This document shows, piece by piece, positions 6,053 to 28,199 of a stretch of DNA of 64,000 nt. How positions within the stretch are numbered: the first letter of the stretch is position 1; every line of letters begins with the position of its first letter. The notes below the pieces were generated by a model. The model did not search any database. It had not been told where the DNA came from and saw only the letters and a program-made list of their open reading frames with translations. The position numbers were made by a program, and so were the translations under genes. Source of the DNA: an uncultured Actinomycetes bacterium (GTDB lineage Bacteria; Actinomycetota; Thermoleophilia; UBA2241); assembly GCA_963709345.1 (NCBI GenBank), contig CAVPVX010000011.1:1-64000 (forward strand), written 5' to 3'.

Positions 6053-6763
6053 TCAACCCTTTTCCGGCTCGCGCTTGCTGTCGAGGATCTTCTCGGCGAT
6101 GTTGCGCGGGACGTCGCGGTACTCGTGCAACTCCATCGCGTACGAACCGCGGCCCTGCGTCGCTCCGCGCAGTGCGGACGAGTACGCGAACATCTCCGCG
6201 ATCGGCACCAGCGCGCGGATGATGCGCAGGTTGCCCAGTGCGTCCACGTCCGAGACTTCCCCGCGGCGGCTGTTCAGGTCGCCGACGACGCCGCCCATGA
6301 ATTCATCGGGCACGCGCACCTCGATCTTCATGATCGGCTCGAGCAGCGAGACGTTGTTGTCCGCAGCTTGGCGGAACGCGAGCACGCCCGCGGACTGGAA
6401 AGCCATTTCGCTGGAGTCCACGTCGTGGTACTTGCCGTCGAACAGCGTGGCCCTGACGTTGACGAACGGGAACCCGGTGCGGCCACCGGAGTTGAAGCCC
6501 TCGGTCAGGCCCTTTTCCACCGCCGGGATGTACTCGCGCGGGATCGATCCGCCCTTGATGCCATCGACGAATTCGAAACCGCCGCCCTCGGTGGGCACGG
6601 CTTCGAAGCGCACCCAGGCGACGGCGTACTGGCCGCGTCCGCCCGATTGACGGATGAAGCGCGCTTCGGTCTCCATGTTCTTCGCCAGACGCTGCTTGTA
6701 GGCGACCTTCGGCTTGCCGGTGGTCACCTCGCACTTGTGATCGTTCATGATCCGGTGCGTGAT
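6053..6763 (-). CDS. fusA: Elongation factor G, C-terminal part only (domains IV-V), truncated at the junction
   Basis: [65 protein letters not shown]. Homology stops just upstream of ITHRIMND. Confidence 0.9.
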
Positions 6764-6784
6764 CGCTGCCGGGGACTAATCAGC

Positions 6785-7789
6785 ATGACCTACACAGTCA
6801 CCCTCATTCCCGGCGACGGCACCGGCCCGGAGCTCGCCGCCGCCCTCGAGACCGTGATGGCCGCGACCGGCGTCCCCATCGTGTGGGAGGTCCACGACGC
6901 CGGCCTCGACGTCATGGACGAGTACGGCACGCCGCTGCCCGAGCACGTGCTCGAGTCGATCCGCCGCACCAAGGTGGCGATCAAAGGACCGATCACGACG
7001 CCGGTGGGCAAGGGCTTCCGCAGCGTCAACGTGGCGCTGCGCAAGGAGCTCGACCTGTATGCCTGCCTGCGGCCCTCCAAGACTATGACGGGCGTGCGCA
7101 GCCGCTTCGACGACATCGATCTCGTCGTCGTGCGCGAGAACACCGAGGATCTGTACGCCGGCATCGAGCACATGGTCACTCCCGATGCCGCCGAGAGCAT
7201 CAAGATCATCACCCGCAAGGGCAGTGAGCGTATCGCTCGCTTCGCCTTCGAGTACGCGCGCCGGCACAAGCGCCGCAAGGTGACGGCGGTGCACAAGGCC
7301 AACATCATGAAGTGCACCGATGGGCTCTTCCTGCGGGTCGCCGGCGAAGTGGCGGAGGCGTATCCGGACATCGAGTTCGAGGACCGCATCGTCGACAACA
7401 TGTGCATGCAACTGGTCCAGAAGCCCGAGTTGTACGACGTCCTCGTGCTCCCGAACCTGTACGGCGACATCGTGAGCGACCTGTGCGCCGGCCTCATCGG
7501 CGGTCTCGGCGTCGCGCCGGGCGCCAACATCGGCGACGACGCGGCCGTCTTCGAGCCGGTGCACGGCAGCGCCCCCAAGTACGCCGGCCTGGACAAGGTG
7601 AACCCGACCGCGATCCTGCGCTCGGGCGTCCTGCTGCTGGAGCACCTCGGCGAGGACGAGGCCGCGCGCCGGATGGAAGACGCGATCGCCGCCGTGATCG
7701 CCGAGGGCGTCGAGGTCACCTACGACCTCGGTGGGACGGCGGGCACCAGCGGTATGGCCACCGCCATCGCCGAGCGCATACGCGGCTGA
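6785..7789 (+). CDS. NAD-dependent isocitrate/isopropylmalate dehydrogenase family protein
   Basis: [54 protein letters not shown]. Confidence 0.92.
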
Positions 7790-7839
7790 CGGCCGGCGGA
7801 GCGGCTGCGCCGCCGCCGGCCCCGAGAGGAGAGATCTGC

Positions 7840-8139
7840 ATGGACGACGACGAGCGCCACATCAACCTGCACGCCACACCGGAGATGATGGCGGGCGTCT
7901 ACGCCAACTTCGCCAACGTCAGCCACTCGGACTACGAGTTCTCGATCACCTTCGTGCGTCTCGACCACGAGAGCGAGGAGCCGGGCGAGATGAACGGGGT
8001 CGTGGTCAGCCGCGTGAACCTGTCCGCCCGGTTCATGAAGGAACTGATCGACGCCATGGCCGACAACCACAGCAAGTGGCAGGCGGCGGAGAACATCCGC
8101 GACCTGCCGGAGGCGCCCGGCCACAACCAGCAGGCGTAG
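7840..8139 (+). CDS. DUF3467-like small protein
   Basis: GVYANFANVSHSDYEFSITF motif; SD GAGGAG upstream; TAG stop. Confidence 0.75.
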   Translation: MDDDERHINLHATPEMMAGVYANFANVSHSDYEFSITFVRLDHESEEPGEMNGVVVSRVNLSARFMKELIDAMADNHSKWQAAENIRDLPEAPGHNQQA

Positions 8140-8347
8140 CAGCGCTGCCCGCGGGTGCGCCACAATGGCTAAGTGAGCCGGGTATTCGGCTCCGTTTTGT
8201 GCTGCATTCCGAGGATTTCCAGGCGTTGCCCCGCAGACGGGGGTTGGCTACAATGGCGAGGCCTGCAATCCCACCGCCCGCGTTCGAGGCCTCGCGCCAG
8301 GCGCCGCGAGCTGCGGAGACCTTGTCGCACGTCTTCAGGAGGACGCA

Positions 8348-10165
8348 TTGGACTTCTACCAAGGCAAAGTGCTCAGGATCGACTTGAGCGCCATGACCTC
8401 CGCGGTAGAGCCGCTCAACATGGAATGGGCTCGGCTCTACATCGGCGGTAAGGGTCTCCTCTTCCGGTACCTGTGGGAGGAGGTCACGCCGAAGATGGAC
8501 CCGTGGGCCCCTGAGGCGCCCATCATCCTCATGACGGGCCCGTTCGCCGGCACCAACGTCAGCACGGCCTCTCGCTTGGTCGTGGGGTGCAAGAGCCCGG
8601 CTACCGGGATCCTCAACGATAGCTATGTCGGAGGCGCGTTCGCTCCCGAGATGAAGTTCGCCGGGTACGATGCGGTCATCATCAAAGGTGAGGCGGCGGA
8701 GCCGACCGTGATCGTCGTCAAGGATGATGTGGTGGAGTTCCGCCCCGCTGCGCCGACGTACTGGGGCATGAAGACCTCCGAGATCGAAGAGGCCATGCGC
8801 CGGGACGTCGACCCCGACGCCAGGACATTGTCTATCGGGCCCGCCGGCGAACAGCGCATACCGTGGGCCTGCATCAGCACGGATCAGTACCACAAGGCCG
8901 GACGTGGCGGCCACGGCGCCCTCATGGGCAAGAAGAACCTCAAGGCTCTCGTCATGCACGGCACCGGGAGCGTCTCAGTGGGTGACGCCAAAGCGTTTCT
9001 CGCCGACATGTACCGCATCCACGAGGAGTTCGTGCTCACGGAAGACAACCTCTGGGCACACGAGGAGGGCACGCCGATCCTCGTCGACCTCGTCAATGGC
9101 GCGGGCGCCATGCCAACGAAGAACTGGTCGGCCGGTAGCTTCGAGGGCACAAAGAACCTCAACAGCGAGTCCTTCCAGAAGATCCGCGTCAAGAAACGCG
9201 CTTGCTACCAGTGCGCGATCGCCTGCCGCAATTTCCACGGTACGACGTTCGCCGGCGACGAGGTCCGCGGCGAGGGCCCGGAATACGAGACCATCGCCTT
9301 GTGCGGAGCCAACTGCGGCATCGACGACATCGACGCCCTCATGAAGTTCAACGAGCTCTGTGACGAGTGGGGGCTGGACACGATCTCGTCCGGTTCGGTC
9401 GTCGGCCTTGCGATGGATCTCACCGAGAAGGGCATTCACGATTTCGGTGTCCGCTTCGGTGACGTGGCGAGCTACGTCAAGATGCCCGAGCTGATCAGCA
9501 AGCGTGAGGGTGTCGGCGCCGATCTCGCCTTGGGTGCGCGGGCGCTGGCGGCGAAGTACGGTCACCCGGAACTCTCGTACGACGTCAAGGGCCTTGAGCT
9601 CCCCGGGTATGACCCGCGGGGGTCCTTCGGTATGAGCGTCGGCTATGCGACCAGCGACCGTGGCGGCTGCCATATGCGTACCTATCCGGTGGGCGACGAG
9701 ATCTTGGCCGGCACGTCGCCGGCCGACGAGATCGGTGGCGCCAAGGTCGAGCAGATCGTCGTCGGCGATTCGTCCAAGGGCTTCATCGGGCAGAACATGA
9801 GCTCGGTCAAGTTCACCGGTATCTGGTGCGACTTCTGGGCGGTCACTCCTGATCAGATCGCACAGATGTTCAAGCATGTCTTCGGGCGTGAGTTCACCAC
9901 CGAGGATATTCTCACGATCGGTGAGCGCATCTGGAACCTCGGCCGTCTGTTCAATCTGCGCGAGGGCGTTGAGAAGGATGGTCTTCCAAAGGCTCTGTAC
10001 GCCGAGTCCGGAGCCTTCAAGGACGGTCCCTCGGCCGGCAAGGCGATCGGCGAAGACGTGTTCGCCGAGCGCATGGAACACTACTATGAGATACGCGGCT
10101 GGGACGAGAGCGGCGTGCCCACCGAGAGCAAACTCGCCGAGCTCGGCGTCGACGTCCGCCTTTAG
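8348..10165 (+). CDS. aor: Aldehyde:ferredoxin oxidoreductase (AOR family, W/Mo-pterin)
   Basis: KSPATG, SIGPAGE, GRGGHGALMGKKNLKA, CYQCAIAC, EGPEYET, DEWGLDTIS, YDPRG, RGGCH, RGWD..GVP. TTG start after AGGAGG. Confidence 0.92.
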   Translation: MDFYQGKVLRIDLSAMTSAVEPLNMEWARLYIGGKGLLFRYLWEEVTPKMDPWAPEAPIILMTGPFAGTNVSTASRLVVGCKSPATGILNDSYVGGAFAPEMKFAGYDAVIIKGEAAEPTVIVVKDDVVEFRPAAPTYWGMKTSEIEEAMRRDVDPDARTLSIGPAGEQRIPWACISTDQYHKAGRGGHGALMGKKNLKALVMHGTGSVSVGDAKAFLADMYRIHEEFVLTEDNLWAHEEGTPILVDLVNGAGAMPTKNWSAGSFEGTKNLNSESFQKIRVKKRACYQCAIACRNFHGTTFAGDEVRGEGPEYETIALCGANCGIDDIDALMKFNELCDEWGLDTISSGSVVGLAMDLTEKGIHDFGVRFGDVASYVKMPELISKREGVGADLALGARALAAKYGHPELSYDVKGLELPGYDPRGSFGMSVGYATSDRGGCHMRTYPVGDEILAGTSPADEIGGAKVEQIVVGDSSKGFIGQNMSSVKFTGIWCDFWAVTPDQIAQMFKHVFGREFTTEDILTIGERIWNLGRLFNLREGVEKDGLPKALYAESGAFKDGPSAGKAIGEDVFAERMEHYYEIRGWDESGVPTESKLAELGVDVRL

Positions 10166-10177
10166 GAAGGGAATCCG

Positions 10178-10678
10178 ATGCCACACGTGATGATCAGCAG
10201 CAAGAAGTGCACCGGCTGCCATATGTGCGAACTGGCCTGCTCCGCCCACCATGAGGGCAGCTATCGGCCGTCGGTGGCGCGACTCTTCTCGGAGGTCAAT
10301 CCCACGACGGCGGCGATCAAGGGCCACACCTGTCTGCAGACCGCCTGCGCGAAGTGCCAGGACGCCTGCCCCCACGATGCGATCCTGACGAAGCGCATCA
10401 CCGTCAAGCCGAGCGGTGAGTTCGCGAGCAAGGAGAAGGTCGGCGAGTCGGTCGAGGGCTACGTCCTCGTCGTCGACGAGTCCAAGTGCACCAACTGCGG
10501 CGAGTGCTACGACGTCTGCCCGACGGGCGTGATCCACGAGCATCCCGACCGCCACGTCGCCTTCAAATGCGACCTGTGCGACGGCGAGCCGCAGTGCATC
10601 GCCTTCTGCCAGAACCCGTACGTCCTCGCCGTGGACCTGAAGGTGGACAAGATGGACAGGGAGCTGGTGGAGGCCTGA
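10178..10678 (+). CDS. 4Fe-4S dicluster ferredoxin-like protein
   Basis: Four Cys motifs (CTGCHMC..AC, CLQTACAKC..ACP, CTNCGEC..VCP, KCDLC..C..FC). Confidence 0.9.
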   Translation: MPHVMISSKKCTGCHMCELACSAHHEGSYRPSVARLFSEVNPTTAAIKGHTCLQTACAKCQDACPHDAILTKRITVKPSGEFASKEKVGESVEGYVLVVDESKCTNCGECYDVCPTGVIHEHPDRHVAFKCDLCDGEPQCIAFCQNPYVLAVDLKVDKMDRELVEA

Positions 10679-10680
10679 GC

Positions 10681-10950
10681 GTGGCGACCGTCTCGGTGAA
10701 GCTCCCCGTCGGCATGGTGACGGGGGAAGGAGCGCCCGTCGTCGAGTGCGAGGCTGCGACCGTGGCCGAGGCTCTCGAACGCGCGATCGCCATCGACCCG
10801 CGGCTCAAGCCGCGCATCTTCCGCGAAGACGGACGCATGTGGGCCGGCGTCTTCCTCAACGCGCGCAACATCAACGCGCTGCAAGGTCTGGACACGCCGC
10901 TGAACGACGGTGACAGGCTCGCGCTCGTGCCGCCCATCTCCGGCGGCTGA
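10681..10950 (+). CDS. MoaD/ThiS family sulfur carrier
   Basis: C-terminal PPISGG; typical AOR operon partner. Confidence 0.85.
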   Translation: MATVSVKLPVGMVTGEGAPVVECEAATVAEALERAIAIDPRLKPRIFREDGRMWAGVFLNARNINALQGLDTPLNDGDRLALVPPISGG

Positions 10951-10978
10951 GGCGCGCACACGTGGTACCGAACGCCCG

Positions 10979-11013
10979 GCGGGGCCGGCGCTCCCATCGA
11001 GCGCCGGCCCCGC
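10979..11013 (+). terminator. GC-rich hairpin after the AOR operon
   Basis: 15-bp perfect stem GCGGGGCCGGCGCTC / GAGCGCCGGCCCCGC with a 5-nt loop, followed by CTTCGTT. Confidence 0.65.
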
Positions 11014-11034
11014 CTTCGTTGGTACACTGGTCGC

Positions 11035-11818: not shown

Positions 11819-12883
11819 GTGAACGATACCACCGGCGTCATCCGCGACCTCTGTGCCCGGATCCTCGAAGGCAGGGCTCCGGATGCGAGCCAGATCGAGA
11901 CGCTCCTTCGCGCCGGCGACGCGGCGCCCGAGGTCTTCGCCGCCGCGCGCGAGATGCGCGCCCGCGAGACGGGCGATGCAGTGTTTCTGTATGGATTCGT
12001 CTACTTCTCGACGTACTGCCGCAACGAATGCGCCTTCTGCTTCTACCGCGCGGGGAATACCGAGAGCCCGCGCTACCGCAAGTCGCTGGGCGAGGTCGTC
12101 GCCATCTGCCGCGACCTGGCCCGGTCCGGGGTCGTTCTGCTCGATCTGACCATGGGGGAGGACCCGCTCGTCCATGGAGATCCGGGGTACGCCTCACTGC
12201 TTGAGCTGGTCGACGCCGTATCGGGTGGCTCGGGTCTGCCGGTGATGGTGTCGCCGGGCGTTCTCCCGGACGAGACGTTCGCCGGTCTCAAGGATGCGGG
12301 GACTGACTGGTACGCCCTGTATCAGGAGACGCACACACCCGAGCTCTACGAGCGCCTGCGCGTGGGCCAGCCGTTCGCGGTGCGCGTCGCCGCGCGCGCC
12401 GCGGCCCGGCGTGCCGGGCTCCTCGTCGAGGACGGCCTGCTCACGGGTATCGGCGACACGCCGGCCGATCGCGCCCGATCCGTCGTCGCCATGCGCGACG
12501 CCGGCTGGGAGCAGGTGCGCGTCATGACATTCGTGCCGCAGCCGGGTACGCCGCTGGCCGGCGTCGCGCCGGCCGGCGATGCCGACGAACTCCTCACCAT
12601 CGCCGCGATGCGGCTGGCCATGCCCTCGCGCTTCATCCCGGCGTCGCTCGATGTGGACGGGATCCGCGGTCTCGAGCGCCGGCTGGACGCCGGTGCGAAT
12701 GTCGTGACGTCCATCGTTCCGCCTACCGTCGGGCTGGCCGGTGTGTCCCAGTCGGAGCTCGACATCGACGAGGGGTATCGGACGGTCGCCGGGGTCCTGC
12801 CGCATCTCGAGAAGCTCGGCCTGCGCGCGGCCACCGTCGACGAGTACCGCACCCGCATGTACGTCGTGCGCGGCGACGTCTGA
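11819..12883 (+). CDS. pylB: Methylornithine synthase PylB (radical SAM)
   Basis: LYGFVYFSTYCRNECAFCFYR, DLTMGEDP, MVSPG, WYALYQETH, QVRVMTFVPQPGTP, PASLDVDG, RLDAGANVVTSI.PP..GLAGV. Confidence 0.93.
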   Translation: MNDTTGVIRDLCARILEGRAPDASQIETLLRAGDAAPEVFAAAREMRARETGDAVFLYGFVYFSTYCRNECAFCFYRAGNTESPRYRKSLGEVVAICRDLARSGVVLLDLTMGEDPLVHGDPGYASLLELVDAVSGGSGLPVMVSPGVLPDETFAGLKDAGTDWYALYQETHTPELYERLRVGQPFAVRVAARAAARRAGLLVEDGLLTGIGDTPADRARSVVAMRDAGWEQVRVMTFVPQPGTPLAGVAPAGDADELLTIAAMRLAMPSRFIPASLDVDGIRGLERRLDAGANVVTSIVPPTVGLAGVSQSELDIDEGYRTVAGVLPHLEKLGLRAATVDEYRTRMYVVRGDV

Positions 12884-12893
12884 GGCCGCCGGC

Positions 12894-14136
12894 GTGCGCC
12901 TCCTGATCGTCGGCGGCAGACTGCAGGGCACCGAGGCCGCGTACCTAGCGGGCAAGGCGGGCATGGAGACCGTGCTCGTCGACCGGCGAGAGGAGCCTCC
13001 CGCGGCGGGCCTCGTGGACGTGCACATCGTCACCGACATCACCGCCGACGAGGATCGCGCACGGGCGCTCGTCACGTCGTGTGACGCCGTCCTGCCGGCG
13101 TGCGAGGACGAGCCGACGCTGGCATGGCTGGCCCGCCGCGTGCCGGCGTGGGGCGTGCCGCTGCTGTTCGACCTCGACGCCTATCACGTGACGGAGTCCA
13201 AGCTCGCCTCCCGGCGCCTCTTCGCCGAGCTCGGCGTGCCGCGGCCCGGCGACTGGCCCGAGTGCGGCTTCCCCGTCGCGGTCAAGCCGAGCACAGCCAG
13301 CGGCAGTGAAGGGGTCACGATCGCGCACGATGGTGGCGAGCTCGAGGCGGCGCGTTCGGCGCTGCTCGCCGCCGGGCACGAGGTCGTTGTCGAGGAGTTC
13401 GTCGACGGTCCCTCGCTCTCGCTCGAGGTGCTCGCGTGGGGCGGGCGCGCCGTGCCTCTCCAGGCGACGGGCCTCGAGTTCGACAGCGGCTACGACTGCC
13501 GGCGCGTGGTCGCGCCGGTCGGGGCGGCCGGAGCCGGAGGGTCTGCGGCCGCCGCTCCAGGCGGCGCCTGCGACTGGCAGCGCGCCGCTCCGGCGGGCGC
13601 GCTCGCCGCGCTCGACGCCGCCGGCGTGCGTCTGGCAGAAGGCCTCGGCCTGCGCGGACTCATGGATGTGGAGGTCATGGTCCGTGGCGACGAGGCGAAG
13701 GTCCTGGAGATCGATGCGCGGCTCCCGAGCCAGACCCCGACCGCCGTGTTCTGGTCGAGCGGGCTGAACCTCGTCGAGCTGCTGGCCGAGACGGTCATCC
13801 ACGAGGGAGTGCCGGCTCTCGATCGCCGTCCGCGTCGCGCCTGCGTGTATCAGCACGTGAGCGCGTCGGGTGGTTTGCATGGAGGTCGTCGGCGAGCATG
13901 CCATGGGAAGCGCCGGGATTCTGAGCCTGCTGCCCGGCTTCTTCGGCGTGGACGAGGCGCTGACGGACTATCGTCCGGGGGCGGCGACATGGGCGGTCAC
14001 GCTGATCGCGGTGGCGCCGACGGTCTCCGAAGCGCTGGAGAGGGTGCGACGCGCCACCCAGGAGGTGGCGCGGGTGGAAGGCCTTGACCTTCTACCTGAG
14101 GTTGATGGTCATGCAGAGGGGAGTCGGGCCCGGTGA
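12894..14136 (+). CDS. pylC: 3-methylornithine--L-lysine ligase PylC (one frameshift near 13874, probably a sequencing error)
   Basis: IVGGRLQGTEAAYLAGKAG, KPSTASGS.GV, GPSLSLEV, YDCRRV, GLMDVEV, LEIDARLPSQTP; continues in another frame as EVVGEH..GFFG.DEALTDY. Confidence 0.9.
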
Positions 14137-14939
14137 CGCGATTGACCGAGAACGACGTGGGAGATCTCAGGCGGGGCCTCGACGCGTTCGAGGAGCGGCT
14201 GCGTGAAGTGGCCGGCCTCGGTCTCAGCGAGGTCGCCCTCCGCAGCGCCGGCGAGGAGGAGTACGGCGTGCGGCTCTACGGAGCGCGTGCGGCCTCCGTA
14301 CCCGTTTCCACCGGCGAGGGTTTCATTCCCGGGTTCGGTGAGTGCGTCGTCGCCGTTCTCGAGCATCTGGGGTGCGAGGCGTGGGTGACGGCGCAGTCCG
14401 ACGTCCGGGGGATCCAGGAGGCGGTGCAGGCTGGCGCCGAGGTCGTCTTTCTCGCCGACGACCACCGCTTCATCGCGCTGAACGTCACCAAGGCGCGCTG
14501 CGTCGACGACGACCCGGCCACGGCCGACGGGTACGTCACTGCGCTCGAGGCTGCCTCGGGAGGGTTGTGCGACCGTGACGTGCTGTTGCTGGGTCTTGGC
14601 CCGGTCGGCCGCGCCGCCGCGCACGGGCTGCTGGGTCACGGCGCCGTCGTCCACGTGGTCGAGCCCGACTCCGAGCGTCTCGAGGCGGTCCTGGAGGCGG
14701 GCGTCAAGTTGCATCCGACCGGCCTGGCCGATGGCCTGGCCAAGTGCCAGCTCATCTTCGACGCGACGCCCGCCGCGGGCATCATCGCTGCCGGCGACAT
14801 CGGCCCTGAGACCATCGCCGCCGTCCCGGGACTGCCGTCGGCGTTCACGGCGGCGGCCCGCGGGGCTCTCGGCGTACGGCATATCCACGAGCCGCTGGCG
14901 ATCGGTGTAGCCGTGATGATCGCGCGGGCGATCAAGTAG
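14133..14939 (+). CDS. pylD: Pyrrolysine synthase / 3-methylornithyl-N6-L-lysine dehydrogenase PylD
   Basis: MTRLT, VPVSTGEG.I.GF, DVRGI, ADDHRFIALN, GLGPVG, DATPA, H.PL.IGV; overlaps the pylC stop; TAG stop. Confidence 0.92.
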   Translation: MTRLTENDVGDLRRGLDAFEERLREVAGLGLSEVALRSAGEEEYGVRLYGARAASVPVSTGEGFIPGFGECVVAVLEHLGCEAWVTAQSDVRGIQEAVQAGAEVVFLADDHRFIALNVTKARCVDDDPATADGYVTALEAASGGLCDRDVLLLGLGPVGRAAAHGLLGHGAVVHVVEPDSERLEAVLEAGVKLHPTGLADGLAKCQLIFDATPAAGIIAAGDIGPETIAAVPGLPSAFTAAARGALGVRHIHEPLAIGVAVMIARAIK

Positions 14940-14974
14940 CCGGGCGACGGTCCTCCGTCGCGCGGCTCGGGGTG

Positions 14975-14980
14975 TACAAT
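14975..14980 (+). promoter_or_regulatory. Putative -10 element (TACAAT) for tRNA-Pyl
   Basis: AT-rich hexamer 10 nt upstream of the tRNA in very GC-rich DNA. Confidence 0.5.
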
Positions 14981-14990
14981 CGAAGCGCGC

Positions 14991-15063
14991 GGGGGGTCGA
15001 TCGGAAGGATCAGCGTGGGCTCTAAACCCACGCAGGCGGGTGTGACTCCCGCACTCCCCGCCA
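14991..15063 (+). tRNA. pylT: tRNA-Pyl (anticodon CUA)
   Basis: GGGGGGU/ACUCCCC acceptor, G discriminator, encoded CCA; GAUC/GAUC D-stem with a 5-nt loop; CGUGGG-CUCUAAA-CCCACG anticodon arm; CAG variable loop; GCGGG/CCCGC T-stem without TpsiC. Closely resembles Desulfitobacterium tRNA-Pyl and sits directly after pylD. Confidence 0.95.
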
Positions 15064-15129
15064 CTGCGCTTCTTGGCCCCCCTCCGCCCCGCCGCCCGCG
15101 TGGGCGCGACCGTTCGGCGGGCGGGCTCT

Positions 15130-16044
15130 CTAGTTCCCTGCGAACGTGATGGGGATGCGGATGGTGTTCTGCCGCGACCCGTCTTCCATCGACTGCGTGA
15201 ACACGACGAGCGTGCCCGCGGCGGCCGACGTCGAGAAGGCGATCTCCTTGCGAAAGCCGCCGCGATCCGGTGCTCCTCGCGTGGCCTGCACGGTCGTGCT
15301 CACGACGCGGCGGCCGCCGGCGTCGACGAGACGCGCGGTGAAGCTCCCCTCGTAGACACTCGCGGTACCGTGGATCGTGAACGGGCTGGAGACCACAGCG
15401 CCGAGACCCGGGCGCTCGACGAAGATTGCCGGCTCGAGTGATCTGAAGTCGGCGCGTCGCCACACGGCGGGCTGCGAGCCGGTCTGCTCGCCCGCCGGGA
15501 ACGGCTGCCCCTCGACGCGGATGGCGACCTTGCGCACCGTCGGGTACTGCGTCAGGGCGTAGACGATCTGAGCCGTAGGGCTCGGCTCAGGGTCGGCGGC
15601 GGGGTCCGCGAAGCGCGAAGAGAGGTCGACGGACGCCGTTGCGCCCGCGATCGTGATCCCCCTGAGCTTGACGCCGTTCGGCAGGGCGGAGGAGACGCCC
15701 GCGCTCCTCTCAGACGATGTGGGCCCCTTGAACAGAGCGTTGAGCGTTGCCCGCGCCGGCGCGGGCGTGTACGGCACCCAGCGCTCCACTGCGCACAGCT
15801 CGCCGCCGCGGATGAAGTAGAGCGTGACGGGCGTCTGCTCCGGACGGGGAGTGGCTGACGGCGAGGGTGAGGCGCTTGGAGACGACGACGGGCTCGCGGT
15901 CACGCTGACCGTCGCTGCGGGCTGCGGCGTGTCACCGCCACCGCAGGCGGCGGCCAGGGCGGCGATCAGGACAACGGCGAGCGCGCCGGCGATGAGCAGC
16001 AGCGGGAACAGGCGGGTGAGGCCGGCCGCGGCGCGGCGAGTCAT
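15130..16044 (-). CDS. GerMN + Gmad2 (Ig-like) domain lipoprotein
   Basis: Lipobox-like LAAAC, Ser/Pro linker, LF.GPT..E...G..SALP..ASVDLS..QIVYALTQYPTV..V, then I.VE.P..G..V.SP..I.GTA.VYEG. Confidence 0.8.
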   Translation of the reverse strand: MTRRAAAGLTRLFPLLLIAGALAVVLIAALAAACGGGDTPQPAATVSVTASPSSSPSASPSPSATPRPEQTPVTLYFIRGGELCAVERWVPYTPAPARATLNALFKGPTSSERSAGVSSALPNGVKLRGITIAGATASVDLSSRFADPAADPEPSPTAQIVYALTQYPTVRKVAIRVEGQPFPAGEQTGSQPAVWRRADFRSLEPAIFVERPGLGAVVSSPFTIHGTASVYEGSFTARLVDAGGRRVVSTTVQATRGAPDRGGFRKEIAFSTSAAAGTLVVFTQSMEDGSRQNTIRIPITFAGN

Positions 16045-16155
16045 GAGGCACCTCGAGTCGTGTGGGGTCGAGAGAAGGGCATTCGACGCGGCGCGCTCTC
16101 ATCCTGCCTGGCGGGCGGCGAGGGAGCTCGGGCGGCGTGGTAGACTCGGCGCCCG

Positions 16156-16485
16156 ATGCCCACCGATCCGAACAAGGCGCGCTACTACCGCAAGCAGGTG
16201 CCGCTCTTTCGCCTCGTCGAGAAGCTGAAGCTGTGGCCGTCGCGACGCGGCATCCTGCACGGCGTCAAGCAGTTCGAGGAGCACGGCTCGTACGCGGTCA
16301 TCGTGACGCACTGCAGCAAGCACATGGTCGTCCACGACTCGAAGTCGAGCCGCGCCGGCCGGTGGCTTCGCAACAAGTGGTATGCCGAGGCGTGCCCGCA
16401 GTGCCGCATCCCGGAGTGGAAGCTGCAGAAGTACGCGGCGACGCACTTCAAGCGGGGGTTCGGCTCGCATCTTCGCGACACCTGA
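16156..16485 (+). CDS. pylSn: Pyrrolysyl-tRNA synthetase N-terminal subunit PylSn
   Basis: KLKLWPSRRGILHGVK...THC...DSKSSRAGRWLRNKW....CPQCRIPEWKL matches the PylSn Zn-binding domain (H, C..C..C). Confidence 0.92.
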   Translation: MPTDPNKARYYRKQVPLFRLVEKLKLWPSRRGILHGVKQFEEHGSYAVIVTHCSKHMVVHDSKSSRAGRWLRNKWYAEACPQCRIPEWKLQKYAATHFKRGFGSHLRDT

Positions 16486-16518
16486 GGCGGGCCGTGCCGT
16501 CGCGGCGCCGGCGCGGCC

Positions 16519-17397
16519 TCAGAGGAGACGCCAGCTCTCGGGTCGCAGTTGCACCGACTCCGGCGCTTCCAGCACCTTGTCCAGGGACTTCAGGATGCTC
16601 TCCTTGTCGGCGGGCAGGTGACCGCCGACGGGCAGGTAGTTGGACGCGTGGTTGCAGCGGAACACGCAGTCGGTGACCTCGAGGTGCGCGACGATCTCGC
16701 GGAGCTCGCGCAGCATACCGATGGAGTCGGGCAGGACGAGGTGGCCGGAGGCGACCTTGCGCTCCATCGCCGTGCCCGGGGGGAGCATCAGCGTGAGGAT
16801 GCCGATGTACTCGGGGTCGATCGCCGAAAGGGCCTTGCCGGTGGCCGCGGCGTGGACCAGAGACCTCTCCCGGCCGGCAAGGCCGAGGATCGCGGTCACC
16901 GAGAGCCGCATGCCGGCGTCCGAGGCGCGGCGGCACCCCTCGATCTGCTCGGCGACGGTCATGCTCTTGTGGATGTCGGCGAGCGTCGCGTCGTCGCCGG
17001 ACTCGAGGCCGAGATAGAGAAGGTCGAGACCGCGCGCGCGCAGCGCGGCGAGTTCGCCGACCTGCTTCGCGAGGAGGTTCCTCGCATTGGCGTAGCTGCT
17101 CACGCGCTCGAGGTTCGGCAGCGCGCGATGCAGAAGGTCGAGGACGGCGTCCAGCTTGCGCGGGCTGAGCGCCATGGCGTCGCCGTCGGCGAGGAAGACC
17201 CGGGTCACCCGCTGCCGCACGCTCGCGGGGAGACCGGTCACATCTTCGACGACCTCGTCGAAGGGACGCGCCGCGAACGGCTTGTCCAGGTAGGTGCCGC
17301 AGAAGTCGCAGGTGTTGTTGGAGCAGCCGTAGGTCACCTGCACGATCAGGCTGTCGGCCTCGCTGGGTGGACGGATGACGGCGCCGTGATACCTCAC
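16519..17397 (-). CDS. Radical SAM protein (RPPSEA.S family, function unknown)
   Basis: IRPPSEADSLIVQVTYGCSNNTCDFCGTY, FLADGDA, YLGLESGDD, F.CNHASNY. Confidence 0.85.
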   Translation of the reverse strand: MRYHGAVIRPPSEADSLIVQVTYGCSNNTCDFCGTYLDKPFAARPFDEVVEDVTGLPASVRQRVTRVFLADGDAMALSPRKLDAVLDLLHRALPNLERVSSYANARNLLAKQVGELAALRARGLDLLYLGLESGDDATLADIHKSMTVAEQIEGCRRASDAGMRLSVTAILGLAGRERSLVHAAATGKALSAIDPEYIGILTLMLPPGTAMERKVASGHLVLPDSIGMLRELREIVAHLEVTDCVFRCNHASNYLPVGGHLPADKESILKSLDKVLEAPESVQLRPESWRLL

Positions 17398-17510
17398 GCA
17401 GCGATGCTAGCACGGGCGGAGAGCCCGTGCGCCCCGGCTCCGCGGGCCCATCGACGGACTTCTCTTCGCACCTCGTCATGTGCGCTTGTGTGGCCGCATG
17501 TTCGACCTGC

Positions 17511-17519
17511 TGATATACT
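17511..17519 (+). promoter_or_regulatory. Extended -10 (TGaTATACT) upstream of the corrinoid protein gene
   Basis: Near-consensus extended -10, about 160 nt upstream of ATG 17681. Confidence 0.5.
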
Positions 17520-17680
17520 CCCGTCGCGCGCTGTAGGAGGGCGTCTGGGGAGGAACGGCCGACGAGCTGTCCGGCTGCTGCTCCCCTCGGCTTGCGGAGT
17601 CGGATCTCCCTCCCCGGCGCACCCGCCATACCTAGCTGCGCGGAAACAGTTGTGAGCGATGTTGGGAGGAGTCCAGGGTC

Positions 17681-18316
17681 ATGGCAGAAGGCATCTACCA
17701 AGAAGCAGCCGAGAGCATCATCAACGCAGACCGGGCGGCGTCCGAAGCGGTGGCGACGCGTGCCCTGGCCGAGGGCATCGCCCCGGCCGACATCATGCAG
17801 AACGGCTTCGTCAAGGGCATCCAGGAGGTCGGTGAGCTGTTCGAGAGCGGCGAGGTCTTCCTCCCCGAGCTCATGATGAGCGCCGACGCCATGGCCGGCG
17901 CCACCGAGGTCACCAACGCCGCCCTAGAGGGCGAGGCCGCCGAGGCCAAGGGCGTGGTCGTGCTCGGCACCGTCCAAGGCGACGTGCACGACATCGGCAA
18001 GGCGATCGTGATCGCCTACCTCAAGGCCAACGGCTTCGAGGTCACCGACCTCGGCCGCGACGTGGCCGCCGACACCTTCATCGCCAAGGCCAAGGAGCTG
18101 AACGCCGACATCATCGGCATGAGCGCCCTGCTGACGACGACGATGGAAGAGCAGAAGAAGGTCATCAAGCAGATCAAGGACGGCGCCCTGCCCTATAAGA
18201 CCGTGGTCGGCGGCGCCCCCTGCACGCAGCGCTGGGCCGACCAGATCGGCGCCGACGCCTACGCCGAGGACGCCAACGACGGCGTCAAGAAGATGGACGC
18301 ACTACTGGGCGTGTAA
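17681..18316 (+). CDS. Corrinoid (B12-binding) methyltransferase cognate protein, MttC/MtbC-like
   Basis: FLPELMMSA.AM, GTVQGDVHDIGK, DLGRDV, SALLTTTM, VGGAP.TQ.WA..IGAD.Y. Confidence 0.92.
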   Translation: MAEGIYQEAAESIINADRAASEAVATRALAEGIAPADIMQNGFVKGIQEVGELFESGEVFLPELMMSADAMAGATEVTNAALEGEAAEAKGVVVLGTVQGDVHDIGKAIVIAYLKANGFEVTDLGRDVAADTFIAKAKELNADIIGMSALLTTTMEEQKKVIKQIKDGALPYKTVVGGAPCTQRWADQIGADAYAEDANDGVKKMDALLGV

Positions 18317-18341
18317 GCTCGCCCGCGGCATCCGAGCGCTC

Positions 18342-18379
18342 CGAGGGGCGGGCCCATGGGCCCGCCCCTCGCGCGTACG
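18342..18379. terminator. Hairpin between the convergent corrinoid gene and pylSc
   Basis: CGAGGGGCGGGCCC-AT-GGGCCCGCCCCTCG perfect inverted repeat. Confidence 0.65.
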
Positions 18380-18401
18380 CTCGGCAGTCGCGCCGTGGGC
18401 G

Positions 18402-19259
18402 CTAGATGTTGAGGCGCACGCCGTCGACGTAGCTCAGGCTGCGGCCCGCGCGTTCGATGTTGGGGTAGCCCTCGCGCGTCGCGAGCAGTCGCTCGAGGCC
18501 GAATCCCAGACCGACCCACGGGTCCACGATGCCCCAGTTGCCGTCCAGGGGGTGCGGACCCATCCCGGCCGAGCAGACCTCGACGCCGTCGACCTCGACG
18601 TCGACCATGGCGCCGTAGACCTCGGAATCGGTGACGACCAGCTCGTAGGGGGCGATGCCGGCGGCGGCCATGACGGCGCCGGCCAGCTCCTCGAGGCGCG
18701 AGCGGCACTCGGCGGCGGGCCGGCCGAGCTCGACGAGGTTGAGCATCGTGAACTCGTTGAGGTGATTGGCGCCCTGCGAGTCGCGCCGGAAGCACGCGCC
18801 GAGCTCGAAGATGCCGAACGGCTTGCTCCAGAGGCGCCCGAGCCGGCGAAGAAGCGTATACAGGTTGGGCGCCAGCATCGGACGCAGGCAGCGCCCGTCG
18901 TCAAGCCAGAAGACCTGGTCGCGCAGCGGATGCCCGTGGTCGACACCCATCTTGACGAGCGAGTCCGACGTGATGATGAGGGGGGTGGCGACTCTCACGA
19001 ACCCGGCGCCGGTGAGAGCGTCCGAGAGACGGGTCTCGAGCGCGACGAGTCCGGGGACCCGGGTTCCGTCACGCAGCTGCTTCAGCCGCCGCCGCCCGGC
19101 CTGAGTGAGCTCGTCCTCGAGGCGCTTGAAGGCGGCGTTGCGAGCGCCGGCGTCCGGGTAGACGCCGGCGAGCGCAACGCCGCCGGCGCCGAGCTCGCGC
19201 AGACGCTGGGCTTGCGTCGCCGTCAACCCGACGAGCGGGTGCTGGTCGCCCGTCGTCAT
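18402..19259 (-). CDS. pylSc: Pyrrolysyl-tRNA synthetase catalytic subunit PylSc
   Basis: Q.QRL.ELG, GF..V.TP, LRPMLAPNLY, FELG.CFR.DSQG..HLNEFTMLNLVE, GPHPLD..W....PW.G.GFGLERL, RSL.Y.DGVRLNI; TAG stop. Confidence 0.94.
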   Translation of the reverse strand: MTTGDQHPLVGLTATQAQRLRELGAGGVALAGVYPDAGARNAAFKRLEDELTQAGRRRLKQLRDGTRVPGLVALETRLSDALTGAGFVRVATPLIITSDSLVKMGVDHGHPLRDQVFWLDDGRCLRPMLAPNLYTLLRRLGRLWSKPFGIFELGACFRRDSQGANHLNEFTMLNLVELGRPAAECRSRLEELAGAVMAAAGIAPYELVVTDSEVYGAMVDVEVDGVEVCSAGMGPHPLDGNWGIVDPWVGLGFGLERLLATREGYPNIERAGRSLSYVDGVRLNI

Positions 19260-20341
19260 CGCTCCGACTCCTCTCCGGGGGAGCGCGCGAGGTAGTCGGC
19301 CAGACCGCCCACCAGCGCGCGCGCCAGCGTCTCGATGTGCTCGGGGCTGCGCGCGAGGGTCTCGTCGGCCGGGCAGGAGAGGAACAGAGGCTCGATCATG
19401 AGCGCGATGCCGCGCGTCTCGCGCAGCAGGCCGTAGTTGCGGCCGAAGCGCCCGATCCAGGGGACGCCGGCCGCCGTCATGCGGCCGGCGATGTAGCCGG
19501 CGAGGCGCCGTCCGTGCTCCGAGTAGTAGTGGCTGCGCTGGAAGAAATACGCGGCGCCGCCACGGGCTTCCGGGGCCTCGTTCGCATTGCAGTGCAGCGA
19601 GATGAAGTACGCGGACCCCGCGGCGTTGGCCGCCTCGGCGCGTGCGTAGAGAGGCAGGCGCTCGTCGGTCTCGCGCGTGAGATGCACGCGGCAGCCCTCG
19701 GCGCGCAGCAGCTCCGCGAGACGCCGCCCGAGAGCCAGTGCAACATCCTTCTCGGCGAGCCCGCCGGGAGAGACCTGCCCGGTGTCGGCGCCGCCGTGTC
19801 CGGGGTCGATGGTGACGGACTGGCCGGTGAGGCTGCGCGCCGACACGTACCCGCCGTCGCGCTCGGGGATCTTCTTGCCCTCGCGGCCCGACTCCGCCTT
19901 GCGCAGCGCCGCGAGCTTGCGGATGGTGCTCTCGCCGACGATGCCGTCGAGCGGCAGGCCGGCGTTGCGCTGGAAGTCGAGGACGGCGCGCTCCACATCG
20001 TCGTCGAGCACCCCGCGCTCGGCGCCCGCGTTGAAGCCGAGCAGGTTGAGCTTGACCTGGAGTTCGAGCACGTCGTCGCCGCGGAACGGCGGTTCGCGAA
20101 GGTACAGAAGGCGGTCGCCCAGGGTGTAGCCCGCCTCGACGAGCTCGCGCCACGTGTTGGCTCCGACGCGGCCGTCCACGAGCAGACCGCGCCGCTGCTG
20201 GAACGCGCGCAGCGCCAGCTCCGTGCCGGGGCCGAAGTAGCCGTCGACGCCCTCTCGGCCCAGCTCGAAGCCCTGCCCGCGGAGACGGGTCTGGACGTCG
20301 AGGACTTCTTTGCCGCGGTCGCCGAGAGAGAGGTCGCGCAC
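19256..20341 (-). CDS. N-acetylmuramoyl-L-alanine amidase with two peptidoglycan-binding domains (CwlM-like)
   Basis: Two PG_binding_1 repeats (DG.FGP.T..A.R.FQ...GL.VDG.VG..T), GY.LGDRLLY, IDPGHGG, EK, FISLH; ATGA overlap with pylSc. Confidence 0.85.
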   Translation of the reverse strand: MRDLSLGDRGKEVLDVQTRLRGQGFELGREGVDGYFGPGTELALRAFQQRRGLLVDGRVGANTWRELVEAGYTLGDRLLYLREPPFRGDDVLELQVKLNLLGFNAGAERGVLDDDVERAVLDFQRNAGLPLDGIVGESTIRKLAALRKAESGREGKKIPERDGGYVSARSLTGQSVTIDPGHGGADTGQVSPGGLAEKDVALALGRRLAELLRAEGCRVHLTRETDERLPLYARAEAANAAGSAYFISLHCNANEAPEARGGAAYFFQRSHYYSEHGRRLAGYIAGRMTAAGVPWIGRFGRNYGLLRETRGIALMIEPLFLSCPADETLARSPEHIETLARALVGGLADYLARSPGEESER

Positions 20342-20537
20342 CGGTGACTCCTGGTCGCCAGGCCCTGCTTCGCAAGGCCCGTGTCGCTGGGCCCTGGATT
20401 CTATACGACTCGCCTCGCCCTGGCGGCCTGCGCGCGGGTGAGCCACTGCCGGAGCCGAGGTTAGCGCATCGGCGTCTGGTGGTAGCACCGCATGCGAGGG
20501 CCATCAATCGGGCACGGACATAAGGGAGACGAGGCCG

Positions 20538-28008: not shown

Positions 28009-28199
28009 GTGGTCCTCCCGGTGTTCCGCGGGCTCGTCGGGTCGTCCCGGCGAGAGCCCTCCGCGGCAAGCATAGCAAGCCGCGTCACCCACCGCCCGCC
28101 GCGTCAGCGGCGTGCGCTTGCGAGAGGGATGGGGGTCGTGGACGAAGTGATACACTCAAGCTGTTTTGCAGGGGAAACCACTGCTCCGGAGGAGTAACG

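What the first reader, a model, noticed from the sequence alone, without database searches (positions are those of the whole stretch)
11819..19259. Complete pyrrolysine genetic-code expansion system in an apparent deep-branching actinomycete
Seen: pylB, pylC, pylD, a CUA-anticodon tRNA, pylSn and pylSc are all present within 7.5 kb, with codon style matching the flanking housekeeping genes. Known: the split PylSn/PylSc form is the bacterial type, and the best-characterised bacterial Pyl users are Firmicutes (Desulfitobacterium, Acetohalobium) and Deltaproteobacteria (Bilophila). Inference: the host looks like Thermoleophilia/Rubrobacteria (CwlM-like amidase, GerMN-Gmad2, cpgS-pgk2, leaderless genes, very high GC). 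That would be an unusual carrier, and the PylRS/tRNA pair is a candidate new orthogonal pair. I cannot tell whether such MAGs have already been reported.
Basis: partly seen in the sequence, partly recalled or inferred. Interest (0 to 1): 0.88.

Follow-up and report, generated by a model that had tools for sequence, protein, structure and literature searches.

The report
Pyrrolysine system in a Thermoleophilia genome
This stretch holds every gene a bacterium needs to read the stop codon TAG as the rare amino acid pyrrolysine, in an actinobacterial lineage where the trait is family-wide, already visible in public genomes, and still hardly studied.

Summary
pylB, pylC, pylD, a CUA-anticodon tRNA-Pyl, pylSn and pylSc all lie in window 11819-19259, and each protein passes its curated family cut-off. 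The genome also holds 9 mttB-family and 11 mtbB matches with one in-frame TAG, always at the pyrrolysine site. The system therefore has clients.

The carrier is not new, though. PylSc was found in 72 of 79 sampled genomes of the same family. NCBI already names such proteins in Thermoleophilia MAGs. Two papers mention Pyl in Actinobacteria.

The pylC frameshift is one extra base that 7 of 7 relatives lack. All three near-identical public contigs that cover the site also lack it. It is probably an assembly error or a private variant.

Three things I did not find in print:
- The locus is conserved and interleaved with housekeeping genes.
- The pylSc start overlaps the stop of a cell-wall amidase gene.
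- A second, different Pyl operon occurs in a sister family.

Verdict: a real, probably working system. It is a new member of a known kind and of moderate interest.

The parts
11819..12883 (+). pylB, methylornithine synthase (radical SAM)
   Evidence: TIGR03910 426.7 bits against a cut-off of 348.2, profile positions 6-345 of 347. GTG start at 11819 and TGA stop.
12894..14136 (+). pylC, 3-methylornithine--L-lysine ligase. In this assembly one extra base near 13877-13879 breaks the frame.
   Evidence: TIGR03909 281.4 bits for 12894-13877. Positions 13879-14001 in the other frame match profile positions 308-348. The extra base is absent from 7 of 7 relatives and from 3 of 3 covering public contigs. 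The native frame ends in a GTGA overlap with pylD.
14133..14939 (+). pylD, 3-methylornithyl-N6-L-lysine dehydrogenase
   Evidence: TIGR03911 213.2 bits against a cut-off of 150.05, profile positions 1-262 of 266. GTG start and TAG stop.
14991..15063 (+). pylT, tRNA-Pyl with anticodon CUA; 73 nt with an encoded CCA
   Evidence: ARAGORN. [quoted passage not shown] The sequence is identical in L052, L058, L061, L073 and L074.
15130..16044 (-). GerM/Gmad2 lipoprotein-like gene. It intervenes in the cluster and is not a pyl gene.
   Evidence: Pfam Germane 75.1 bits and Gmad2 70.1 bits. It is kept at the same site in the Pyl-less congener G049.
16156..16485 (+). pylSn, the tRNA-binding small subunit of PylRS
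   Evidence: TIGR03912 122.7 bits against a cut-off of 51.15. PDB 5ud5, the N-terminal domain of a pyrrolysine--tRNA ligase, E 3.5e-13.
16519..17397 (-). Uncharacterised radical SAM protein. It intervenes in the cluster and is not tied to Pyl.
   Evidence: Pfam PF04055 54 bits. No NCBIfam family reaches its cut-off. Found in family f1 67 of 79 and family f4 41 of 61 genomes, including Pyl-less ones.
17681..18316 (+). MtbC/MttC-like corrinoid protein, the methyl acceptor of the methylamine methyltransferases
   Evidence: TIGR02370 213.6 bits, just under its cut-off of 215.3; NF041607 MtbC 208.6 bits. A corrinoid gene also lies beside pylSc in loci of other phyla.
18402..19259 (-). pylSc, the catalytic large subunit of PylRS
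   Evidence: TIGR02367 317.9 bits against a cut-off of 178.15. PDB 3dsq and 2zni (pyrrolysyl-tRNA synthetase) 316 bits. ATG start and TAG stop.
19256..20488 (-). N-acetylmuramoyl-L-alanine amidase with two PG_binding_1 domains. It lies upstream of pylSc and its stop overlaps the pylSc start.
   Evidence: Pfam Amidase_3 132.3 bits and PG_binding_1 114.4 bits in 2 stretches. ATGA overlap at 19256-19259. The same 4-nt overlap occurs in 25 of 38 clade loci.

Best explanation
This is a vertically inherited pyrrolysine (Pyl) decoding system of the bacterial split-synthetase type, in a Thermoleophilia (Actinomycetota) genome. At the species level it is most likely working.

Proposed mechanism:
1. PylB, PylC and PylD make pyrrolysine from two lysines.
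2. PylSc, helped by the tRNA-binding PylSn, charges tRNA-Pyl (anticodon CUA).
3. The charged tRNA reads the single in-frame UAG at the active-site position of trimethylamine (MttB) and dimethylamine (MtbB) methyltransferases.
4. These enzymes pass methyl groups to MtbC/MttC-like corrinoid proteins, which a RamA-like activase keeps reduced.
5. The organism thereby lives partly on methylated amines, without methanogenesis or acetogenesis.

Shown here: the genes, their family membership, the TAG positions, the synteny and the distribution among relatives.

Inferred: the enzyme activities, actual UAG read-through, the fate of the methyl group, and that the pylC frame break is not real in the living population.
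For: - All six pyl components pass their curated cut-offs or tRNA detection.
- Clients exist. Of 64 MttB-family matches in the 3.11-Mb genome, 9 hold one TAG. All 9 TAGs sit in the motif VAG[A/L]-TAG-[G/A/T]DSK.
- By my count from the printed alignment, that site aligns with residue 334 of the solved trimethylamine methyltransferase 7xcm_A.
- Of 15 MtbB matches, 11 hold one TAG. All sit in DG[L/Y]-TAG-[V/I]G.GD. The frames stay open beyond the TAG.
- Support genes are present: one RamA-like activase, three URO-D family matches besides the strongest one and about ten full-length corrinoid proteins.
- PylSc is found in 72 of 79 sampled genomes of the family (10 genera), in 9 of 61 of one sister family and in 0 of 260 of ten other families of the class.
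- PylSc of Actinomycetota-labelled records forms one clade (SH-aLRT 96 to 99), with the window's protein nested inside.
- Gene order is conserved in 16 clade loci: amidase>pylSc, then on the other strand pylB-pylC-pylD-pylT, with GerM and pylSn in between. All 13 printed loci of other phyla have co-directional operons.
- Pyl-less congeners G048 and G049 keep the amidase and flanking genes but lack every pyl gene there; G049 also keeps GerM.
- Composition matches the flanks.
- The pylC extra base is missing in 7 of 7 relatives. It is also missing in 3 of 3 covering contigs, 1 to 2 mismatches each, from three runs of three studies.
Against: - In this assembly pylC is frameshifted about 70 residues before its end, and there is no second pylC copy. 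If the break is real, this strain cannot make Pyl.
- The three public contigs that lack the extra base have a depth of only about 2. They may be other strains.
- Many methyltransferase genes are split over frames. 33 of the 64 MttB matches are partial pieces, one mtbB lies in four pieces, and one corrinoid gene in the window lies in three pieces. This could mean gene decay rather than assembly error.
- TAG is not avoided. It ends 383 of 1601 long ORFs, or 24%, and it ends pylD and pylSc themselves. Read-through would have a cost, and no regulator is identified.
- There is no RNA, protein or activity evidence for this genome.
Confidence: 0.85

Rival explanations
1. The Pyl system of this particular strain is decaying. 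The pylC frameshift is real, Pyl is no longer made, and the TAG-bearing methyltransferase genes are becoming pseudogenes.
For: - The frameshift is in the assembly, and there is only one pylC locus.
- Many MttB-family genes, one mtbB gene and one corrinoid gene are split across frames.
- Congeners G048, G049 and G003 lack PylSc. Loss therefore happens in this genus.
Against: - Seven full-length mttB and ten near-full-length mtbB keep open frames on both sides of the TAG.
- The other five pyl components are intact.
- All 3 covering public contigs lack the extra base.
- Split hits of the same kind appear in several relatives' assemblies. That points to assembly indels.
Confidence: 0.1
2. The cluster is foreign to the host. 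Either the contig is mis-binned from a Bacillota or Desulfobacterota organism, or the cassette was recently transferred from one.
For: Pyl cassettes are patchy across phyla. One record in the clade is titled Zixibacteria. A sister family holds a quite different Pyl operon, so transfer has occurred somewhere in the class.
Against: - The contig is 486 kb long and even in G+C.
- pylSc overlaps the stop of a lineage-typical amidase in 25 of 38 clade loci.
- The same backbone (amidase plus flanking genes; GerM too in G049) is found without pyl genes in the congeners G048 and G049.
- The clade's PylSc is separate from those of Bacillota, Chloroflexota and Thermodesulfobacteriota.
- The trait is found in 72 of 79 sampled family genomes.
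Confidence: 0.03

Closest known systems
Desulfitobacterium hafniense PylSc / PylSn / tRNA-Pyl (solved structures 3dsq, 2zni)
   Same: Both have the split PylSn + PylSc architecture. PylSc matches 3dsq at 316.6 bits over residues 12-285. The tRNA has the same general shape: a short D loop, one base after the acceptor stem, and an encoded CCA.
   Different: - The window's tRNA is 73 nt, one base more than the 72-nt Bacillota type, between the D stem and the anticodon stem.
- The genes are not one co-directional operon. pylSc lies on the opposite strand behind an amidase gene, and non-pyl genes are interleaved.
- PylSc falls in a separate Actinomycetota clade.
Actinobacteriota MAGs reported to express Pyl-encoding mttB and mtbB (Ellenbogen et al. 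2023, PMC10805028; passages read), and the 'two Actinobacteria' of Guo et al. 2022 (PMC9630628; passages read)
   Same: Same phylum, same clients (Pyl-type MttB and MtbB) and the same class of synthetase.
   Different: The passages I read give no locus anatomy, no family-wide distribution and no count of Pyl genes per genome. I therefore cannot say whether they belong to this genus.
Methanosarcina PylRS (fused PylSn-PylSc) with the pylTSBCD cluster
   Same: Same chemistry, and the same clients with Pyl at the same MttB site (7xcm_A). PylSn matches the N-terminal domain 5ud5.
   Different: The archaeal enzyme is one fused polypeptide and serves methanogenesis. Here the subunits are separate genes about 2 kb apart on opposite strands. 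The genome shows no acetyl-CoA synthase (CdhC) match. Methanogenesis marker genes were not searched.
Deltaproteobacterial symbiont of Olavius algarvensis with a large pyrroproteome (Zhang and Gladyshev 2007, PMC1976440; abstract seen in a search listing only)
   Same: A bacterium with many Pyl-containing methyltransferase genes.
   Different: Different phylum, a different PylSc clade and a different locus layout. I did not read that paper's text.

Membership tests
Bacterial split-PylRS pyrrolysine system (PylSn + PylSc, tRNA-Pyl, PylBCD) | A class II catalytic subunit PylSc that passes the equivalog model | tested here: met
   TIGR02367 317.9 bits against a cut-off of 178.15. Best solved relatives are all pyrrolysyl-tRNA synthetases.
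Bacterial split-PylRS pyrrolysine system (PylSn + PylSc, tRNA-Pyl, PylBCD) | A separate PylSn gene that encodes the tRNA-binding domain | tested here: met
   TIGR03912 122.7 bits against a cut-off of 51.15. 5ud5 E 3.5e-13, with the aligned Cys/His positions kept. It is a separate gene, on the other strand from pylSc.
Bacterial split-PylRS pyrrolysine system (PylSn + PylSc, tRNA-Pyl, PylBCD) | An amber-suppressor tRNA (anticodon CUA) with the atypical tRNA-Pyl shape. [quoted passage not shown] | tested here: met
   ARAGORN calls it tRNA-Pyl (cta). The fold shows these features. It aligns with 49 tRNA-Pyl genes from other pyl loci. The general Rfam tRNA model does not reach its gathering score.
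Bacterial split-PylRS pyrrolysine system (PylSn + PylSc, tRNA-Pyl, PylBCD) | Intact biosynthesis genes pylB, pylC and pylD | tested here: inconclusive
   pylB and pylD are intact and over their cut-offs. pylC is over its cut-off but is frameshifted by one extra base in this assembly. Near-identical public contigs lack that base.
Bacterial split-PylRS pyrrolysine system (PylSn + PylSc, tRNA-Pyl, PylBCD) | Client genes with an in-frame TAG at the catalytic Pyl position | tested here: met
   9 MttB-family and 11 MtbB matches have one TAG each, all within one conserved motif per family. The MttB site aligns with residue 334 of 7xcm_A.
Bacterial split-PylRS pyrrolysine system (PylSn + PylSc, tRNA-Pyl, PylBCD) | Aminoacylation of tRNA-Pyl and UAG suppression | not testable with these tools
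   This needs an in vivo amber-reporter assay or an in vitro charging assay.
Pyl-dependent trimethylamine methyltransferase MttB (as opposed to non-Pyl MttB superfamily members) | TAG at the position of the Pyl residue, with the frame open beyond it | tested here: met
   7 of the 31 matches that span at least 450 of 500 profile positions carry the TAG. The other 24 have none at that site and count as non-Pyl members.

The most novel reading that the evidence does not exclude
In this Thermoleophilia family, pyrrolysine decoding may be a permanent core trait rather than an inducible accessory cassette.

Observations that lead to this reading:
- The pyl genes have been broken up and woven into housekeeping operons.
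- pylSc is translationally coupled to a cell-wall amidase gene.
- About twenty Pyl-dependent methyltransferase genes sit in a 3-Mb genome.
- TAG still ends about a quarter of all genes.

If this reading holds, UAG would be constitutively ambiguous in a bacterium, as recently argued for Methanosarcina. These uncultured actinobacteria would then be a major non-methanogenic sink for tri- and dimethylamine in anoxic soils and sediments. The class would also have gained Pyl at least twice, because a sister family carries a different operon of the form pylT-pylSn-pylSc-pylBCD.
Probability: 0.3. Interest if true: 0.7.

Novelty: new member of a known kind. Interest (0 to 1): 0.45.

Why it matters
Ecology. 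Known pyrrolysine users are mostly methanogens, Bacillota and Deltaproteobacteria. This is a whole family of Actinomycetota with a large set of Pyl-dependent methylamine methyltransferases. That points to a bacterial competitor of methylotrophic methanogens for tri- and dimethylamine in wetlands, soils and sediments, which bears on methane budgets.

Genetic-code biology. The lineage offers a natural case of Pyl genes embedded in housekeeping operons in a genome that does not avoid TAG stops. It would be useful for asking how bacteria live with an ambiguous stop codon.

Synthetic biology. The pair is one more PylSn + PylSc pair, from a high-G+C host and a distinct PylSc clade. It is not a new class.

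Tried and rejected
1. The radical SAM gene inside the cluster (16519-17397) as a Pyl accessory: rejected.
   - It is absent from the Pyl-less congeners G048 and G049 at this locus.
   - Class-wide, however, it occurs in 41 of 61 genomes of family f4, where only 9 of 61 have PylSc. It is present in Pyl-less G027 and G037. It was not found in Pyl-bearing G006, G060, G057 and G009.
   - Sources name it only 'radical SAM protein' or 'YgiQ family'.

2. The gap in the middle of the PylC match as a second frameshift: rejected. It is an in-frame insert seen in most congeners.

3. Rfam at gathering scores: no match anywhere in the window.

4. A second ARAGORN call at 29254-29345, with a four-base anticodon: it lies inside a long ORF that has a 70%-identical homologue in G048. 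I treat it as a false positive.

5. TAG stop codons of the pyl genes as a feedback device: in the clade, pylSc ends in TAG in 21 of 38 loci and pylD in 4 of 20. The sequences are related and there is no control, so I did not pursue this.

6. Four MttB matches with an in-frame TGA: the TGAs lie near the N-terminal edge at four different alignment columns. I did not follow them further.

7. Expression: no RNA holder was listed for the stretch. Parts of 13400-14400 have no contig cover in the runs I laid.

8. Literature searches:
   - I found no paper that describes a Thermoleophilia Pyl locus. The one paper holding both 'pyrrolysine' and 'Thermoleophilia' is an unrelated soil survey, seen in the listing only.
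   - Passages from PMC10902248, PMC11264602 and PMC12203004 held nothing on the point.
   - PMC11764691 repeats the figures of Guo et al..
   - Supplements were closed, so genome lists of the cited papers could not be checked.

Full report
WHAT IS THERE

ARAGORN finds a tRNA-Pyl with anticodon CUA at 14991-15063 on the + strand. Curated NCBIfam models identify the surrounding genes:

| Gene | Coordinates | Model | Bits | Cut-off |
|---|---|---|---|---|
| pylB | 11819-12883 (+) | TIGR03910 | 426.7 | 348.2 |
| pylC | 12894-14136 (+) | TIGR03909 | 279.7 | 248.3 |
| pylD | 14133-14939 (+) | TIGR03911 | 213.2 | 150.05 |
| pylSn | 16156-16485 (+) | TIGR03912 | 122.7 | 51.15 |
| pylSc | 18402-19259 (-) | TIGR02367 | 317.9 | 178.15 |

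PylSn also matches the solved N-terminal domain of a pyrrolysine--tRNA ligase (5ud5, E 3.5e-13). PylSc matches solved pyrrolysyl-tRNA synthetases (3dsq and 2zni, 316 bits).

Between the pyl genes lie three others. They are a GerM/Gmad2 gene (15130-16044, -), a radical SAM gene (16519-17397, -) and an MtbC/MttC-like corrinoid protein gene (17681-18316, +; TIGR02370 213.6 bits, just under its cut-off of 215.3).

Upstream of pylSc on the minus strand is an amidase gene with two peptidoglycan-binding domains (19256-20488). Its TGA stop overlaps the ATG of pylSc in the four letters ATGA.

G+C is 0.68-0.72 in each 2-kb bin from 10 to 32 kb.

THE tRNA

The 73-nt gene folds as a cloverleaf (-38.6 kcal/mol; 1 of 200 shuffles folds as well). 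[quoted passage not shown] I recall these as hallmarks of tRNA-Pyl.

I collected 50 tRNA-Pyl genes from the window and from related loci. The Actinomycetota type is 73 nt. It is one base longer than the 72-nt Bacillota type, between the D stem and the anticodon stem. That length is shared with two loci of Deltaproteobacteria-like records. The window's sequence is identical to those of L052, L058, L061, L073 and L074. The general Rfam library gives no match over gathering score anywhere in the window.

pylC

The PylC model matches in two stretches, for two different reasons.

First, there is an in-frame insert between profile positions about 207 and 215. Most congeners show the same insert in one open frame.

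Second, there is a true frame break. The last part of the protein continues in another frame, where 13879-14001 matches profile positions 308-348. That frame ends with a GTGA overlap onto the pylD start, which marks it as the native frame.

A DNA alignment with seven relatives shows one extra base in the window near 13877-13879, absent from 7 of 7. I then laid Logan contigs of four public runs on 13400-14400. Three contigs cover the place: one each from X1, X2 and X4, from three studies, with 1 to 2 mismatches each and a depth of about 2. All three leave out one letter at 13877. X3 does not cover the place.

There is no second pylC locus in the genome. The extra base is therefore private to this assembly. 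It could be an assembly error or a strain variant.

The same assembly shows many other genes split across frames. 33 of the 64 MttB-family matches are partial pieces, often adjacent to each other. One mtbB lies in four pieces. One corrinoid gene inside the window (42187-42777) lies in three pieces. Similar splits appear in several relatives' assemblies. I rate an assembly error at about two in three, but only the source reads can settle it.

DOES THE SYSTEM HAVE CLIENTS?

Yes. The window lies on a 486-kb contig of a 3.11-Mb genome in 11 contigs, rated 98% complete.

- MttB. The family model gives 64 matches. 31 of them span at least 450 of 500 profile positions in one frame. Nine matches hold exactly one TAG: seven full-length ones and two pieces. 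In an alignment of the 34 best matches, the eight TAG-bearing ones have it in the same column. All nine show the motif VAG[A/L]-TAG-[G/A/T]DSK.
- One of them, read with TAG=K, aligns over 468 residues with the solved trimethylamine methyltransferase 7xcm_A (384 bits). By my count from the printed alignment, the TAG falls on residue 334 of that chain. I recall position 334 as the pyrrolysine of Methanosarcina barkeri MttB.
- MtbB. The dimethylamine methyltransferase model gives 15 matches. 11 hold one TAG, and ten of those are near full length. All sit in DG[L/Y]-TAG-[V/I]G.GD.
- MtmB. Two MtmB-family matches have no stop inside.

Other genome-wide searches gave:
- one RamA-like activase match;
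- four URO-D family matches;
- 24 corrinoid-protein matches, about ten of them full length;
- no acetyl-CoA synthase (CdhC) match;
- no heme-copper oxidase match;
- one cytochrome bd oxidase match.

This fits an anaerobe or microaerobe that demethylates amines but is not an acetogen. That last sentence is inference.

TAG is not avoided. Among 1601 long, non-overlapping ORFs, 1161 end in TGA, 383 in TAG and 57 in TAA. This is a crude stop-to-stop count without gene calling.

WHO IS THE HOST, AND HOW COMMON IS THE TRAIT?

- A search of 5.8 billion proteins returned more than 2000 PylSc relatives. The best 120 are 73-100% identical. Two clusters carry the NCBI name 'pyrrolysine--tRNA(Pyl) ligase large subunit [Thermoleophilia bacterium]' and one carries '[Actinobacteria bacterium]'.
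- A scan of one genome per species found at least 517 stretches that encode a PylSc relative. The nearest are all in records titled Thermoleophilia, Actinomycetota or Actinomycetes.
- A locus of a genome that the tool rates as the same genus is contained letter for letter in one such record.
- In the genus, 23 of 24 sampled other species have PylSc over its cut-off. 48 of 54 genomes, the window's included, have a PylC match.
- In an even sample of 401 genomes of the class, PylSc is found in 72 of 79 genomes of the window's family (10 genera), in 9 of 61 of one other family (f4) and in 0 of 260 of ten further families.

TREE AND SYNTENY

A quick maximum-likelihood tree used 78 PylSc rows: 77 of the 80 loci plus the window, with three left out for short or interrupted matches. 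It puts the window inside a clade of 38 rows. Of these, 36 are labelled Actinomycetota, one is labelled Zixibacteria and one is the window (SH-aLRT 96). The clade stands apart from Bacillota, Dehalococcoidales, Thermodesulfobacteriota and Aminicenantes rows.

A second tree had 87 rows. I dropped 12 near-duplicates and added 20 unnamed cluster representatives and the f4 genome G032. It gives the same clade (99). It places the G032 protein outside the 74-row group (95) that holds all the named bacterial rows. Both are quick searches without bootstraps and with several long branches, so the deep order is unsure.

Gene order tells the same story.
- In 16 clade loci that reach far enough, the order is amidase>pylSc, then pylSn, GerM, pylT and pylD/pylC on alternating strands as in the window. 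13 of these also have the corrinoid and radical SAM genes between pylSc and pylSn, and 3 lack both.
- All 13 printed loci of other phyla have the pyl genes on one strand.
- The four-letter overlap of the amidase stop with a pylSc start is found in 25 of 38 clade loci. My method was crude, and some of the other 13 are interrupted assemblies.
- Two congeners without PylSc (G048 and G049; 1.7-1.8 Mb, 98% complete) keep the amidase and the flanking genes in order, and G049 also keeps GerM. They have no pyl gene, no tRNA-Pyl and no radical SAM gene there. With the trait nearly universal in the family, loss in these small genomes is the simpler reading.
- G032 of family f4 has a different layout, pylT-pylSn-pylSc-pylB-pylC-pylD on one strand. 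Its pylSn and pylSc frames overlap, and its PylSc is only 51% identical to the window's. The class thus holds two distinct Pyl systems.

HOW IT MOST LIKELY WORKS

The mechanism follows the established chemistry of the families, which was not tested here.
1. PylB, PylC and PylD turn two lysines into pyrrolysine.
2. PylSc with PylSn charges tRNA-Pyl.
3. The tRNA reads the one UAG in each MttB and MtbB message.
4. Pyl activates the methylamine for methyl transfer to the corrinoid proteins, which the RamA-like protein reactivates.

The overlap of pylSc with a housekeeping-type amidase gene suggests, but does not show, that the synthetase is made constitutively. How the cell deals with the quarter of its genes that end in TAG is open.

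WHAT IS KNOWN

- Guo et al. 2022 (PMC9630628, passages read) found PylRS genes in 81 bacterial genomes, 'two Actinobacteria' among them. A 2025 review repeats this (PMC11764691, one passage).
- Ellenbogen et al. 2023 (PMC10805028, passages read) report that some Actinobacteriota MAGs express Pyl-encoding mttB and mtbB.
- Seven literature searches found no description of a Thermoleophilia Pyl locus, of its family-wide distribution or of its layout.

VERDICT

The finding is real and the system is probably functional. It is a new member of a known kind, the bacterial PylSn + PylSc system. Its presence in this lineage is already visible in public annotation and is mentioned in two papers.

- the many Pyl clients in the genome;
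- the conserved, housekeeping-embedded locus;
- the amidase-pylSc overlap;
- clean absence of the pyl genes in small-genome congeners;
- a second Pyl lineage in a sister family.

These make it a reasonable subject for a comparative study, hence a moderate score.

Noticed in passing
window 16519-17397 (-): An uncharacterised 292-aa radical SAM protein lies between pylSn and the corrinoid gene. By eye, its cysteine motif in the translation reads CxxxxCxxC. The best 120 public relatives are 80-92% identical. It occurs in families f1 (67 of 79) and f4 (41 of 61) only, and it is not tied to Pyl. Its function is unknown.
   Followed up: partly
window 42187-42777 (+): A second MttC/MtbC-like corrinoid protein gene is split over three reading frames, meaning two frame changes in about 600 bases. 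This is either an assembly error or a pseudogene, and it bears on how far to trust the pylC frameshift.
   Followed up: partly
window 29254-29345 (+): ARAGORN reports a 92-nt 'tRNA-???' with a four-base anticodon. It lies inside a long ORF (27807-29534) that has a 70%-identical homologue in a congener. It is probably a false positive.
   Followed up: partly
L137 (G032:C12) about 6570-11021: A genome of sister family f4 carries a different Pyl operon, pylT-pylSn-pylSc-pylB-pylC-pylD on one strand. Its pylSn and pylSc frames overlap, so the two are nearly fused. Its PylSc is 51% identical to the window's and falls outside the main bacterial group in a quick tree.
   Followed up: partly
L135 (G048:C1) and L136 (G049:C1): Two congeners with small genomes (1.7-1.8 Mb, 98% complete) keep the amidase and flanking genes (G049 also GerM) but lack all pyl genes at this site. 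PylSc and PylC were not found anywhere in them. This looks like loss of Pyl with genome reduction.
   Followed up: partly
own genome C7:776285-777439 and C2:391900-393261: Two MtmB-family genes have no in-frame stop, so they are non-Pyl homologues. Each lies next to a corrinoid protein gene. A 2026 paper, seen only in a search listing (PMC13044021), links a non-Pyl MtmB homologue to tetramethylammonium and choline use.
   Followed up: no
window 14937-14939 and 18402-18404; clade loci L051-L127: pylD and pylSc themselves end in TAG. In the clade, pylSc ends in TAG in 21 of 38 loci and the radical SAM gene in 21 of 25. The genome-wide figure is about 24%. The sequences are related, so no conclusion is drawn.
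   Followed up: partly
L077: A record titled as a Zixibacteria MAG carries the Thermoleophilia-type locus, with the amidase-pylSc synteny. Its PylSc sits inside the Actinomycetota clade. The contig is probably mis-binned or mislabelled.
   Followed up: no
own genome, all contigs: The MttB superfamily is very large for a 3.1-Mb genome. There are 64 matches, 31 of them full length, and 24 of those 31 have no TAG at the Pyl site. This suggests use of many quaternary or other methylated amines.
   Followed up: partly
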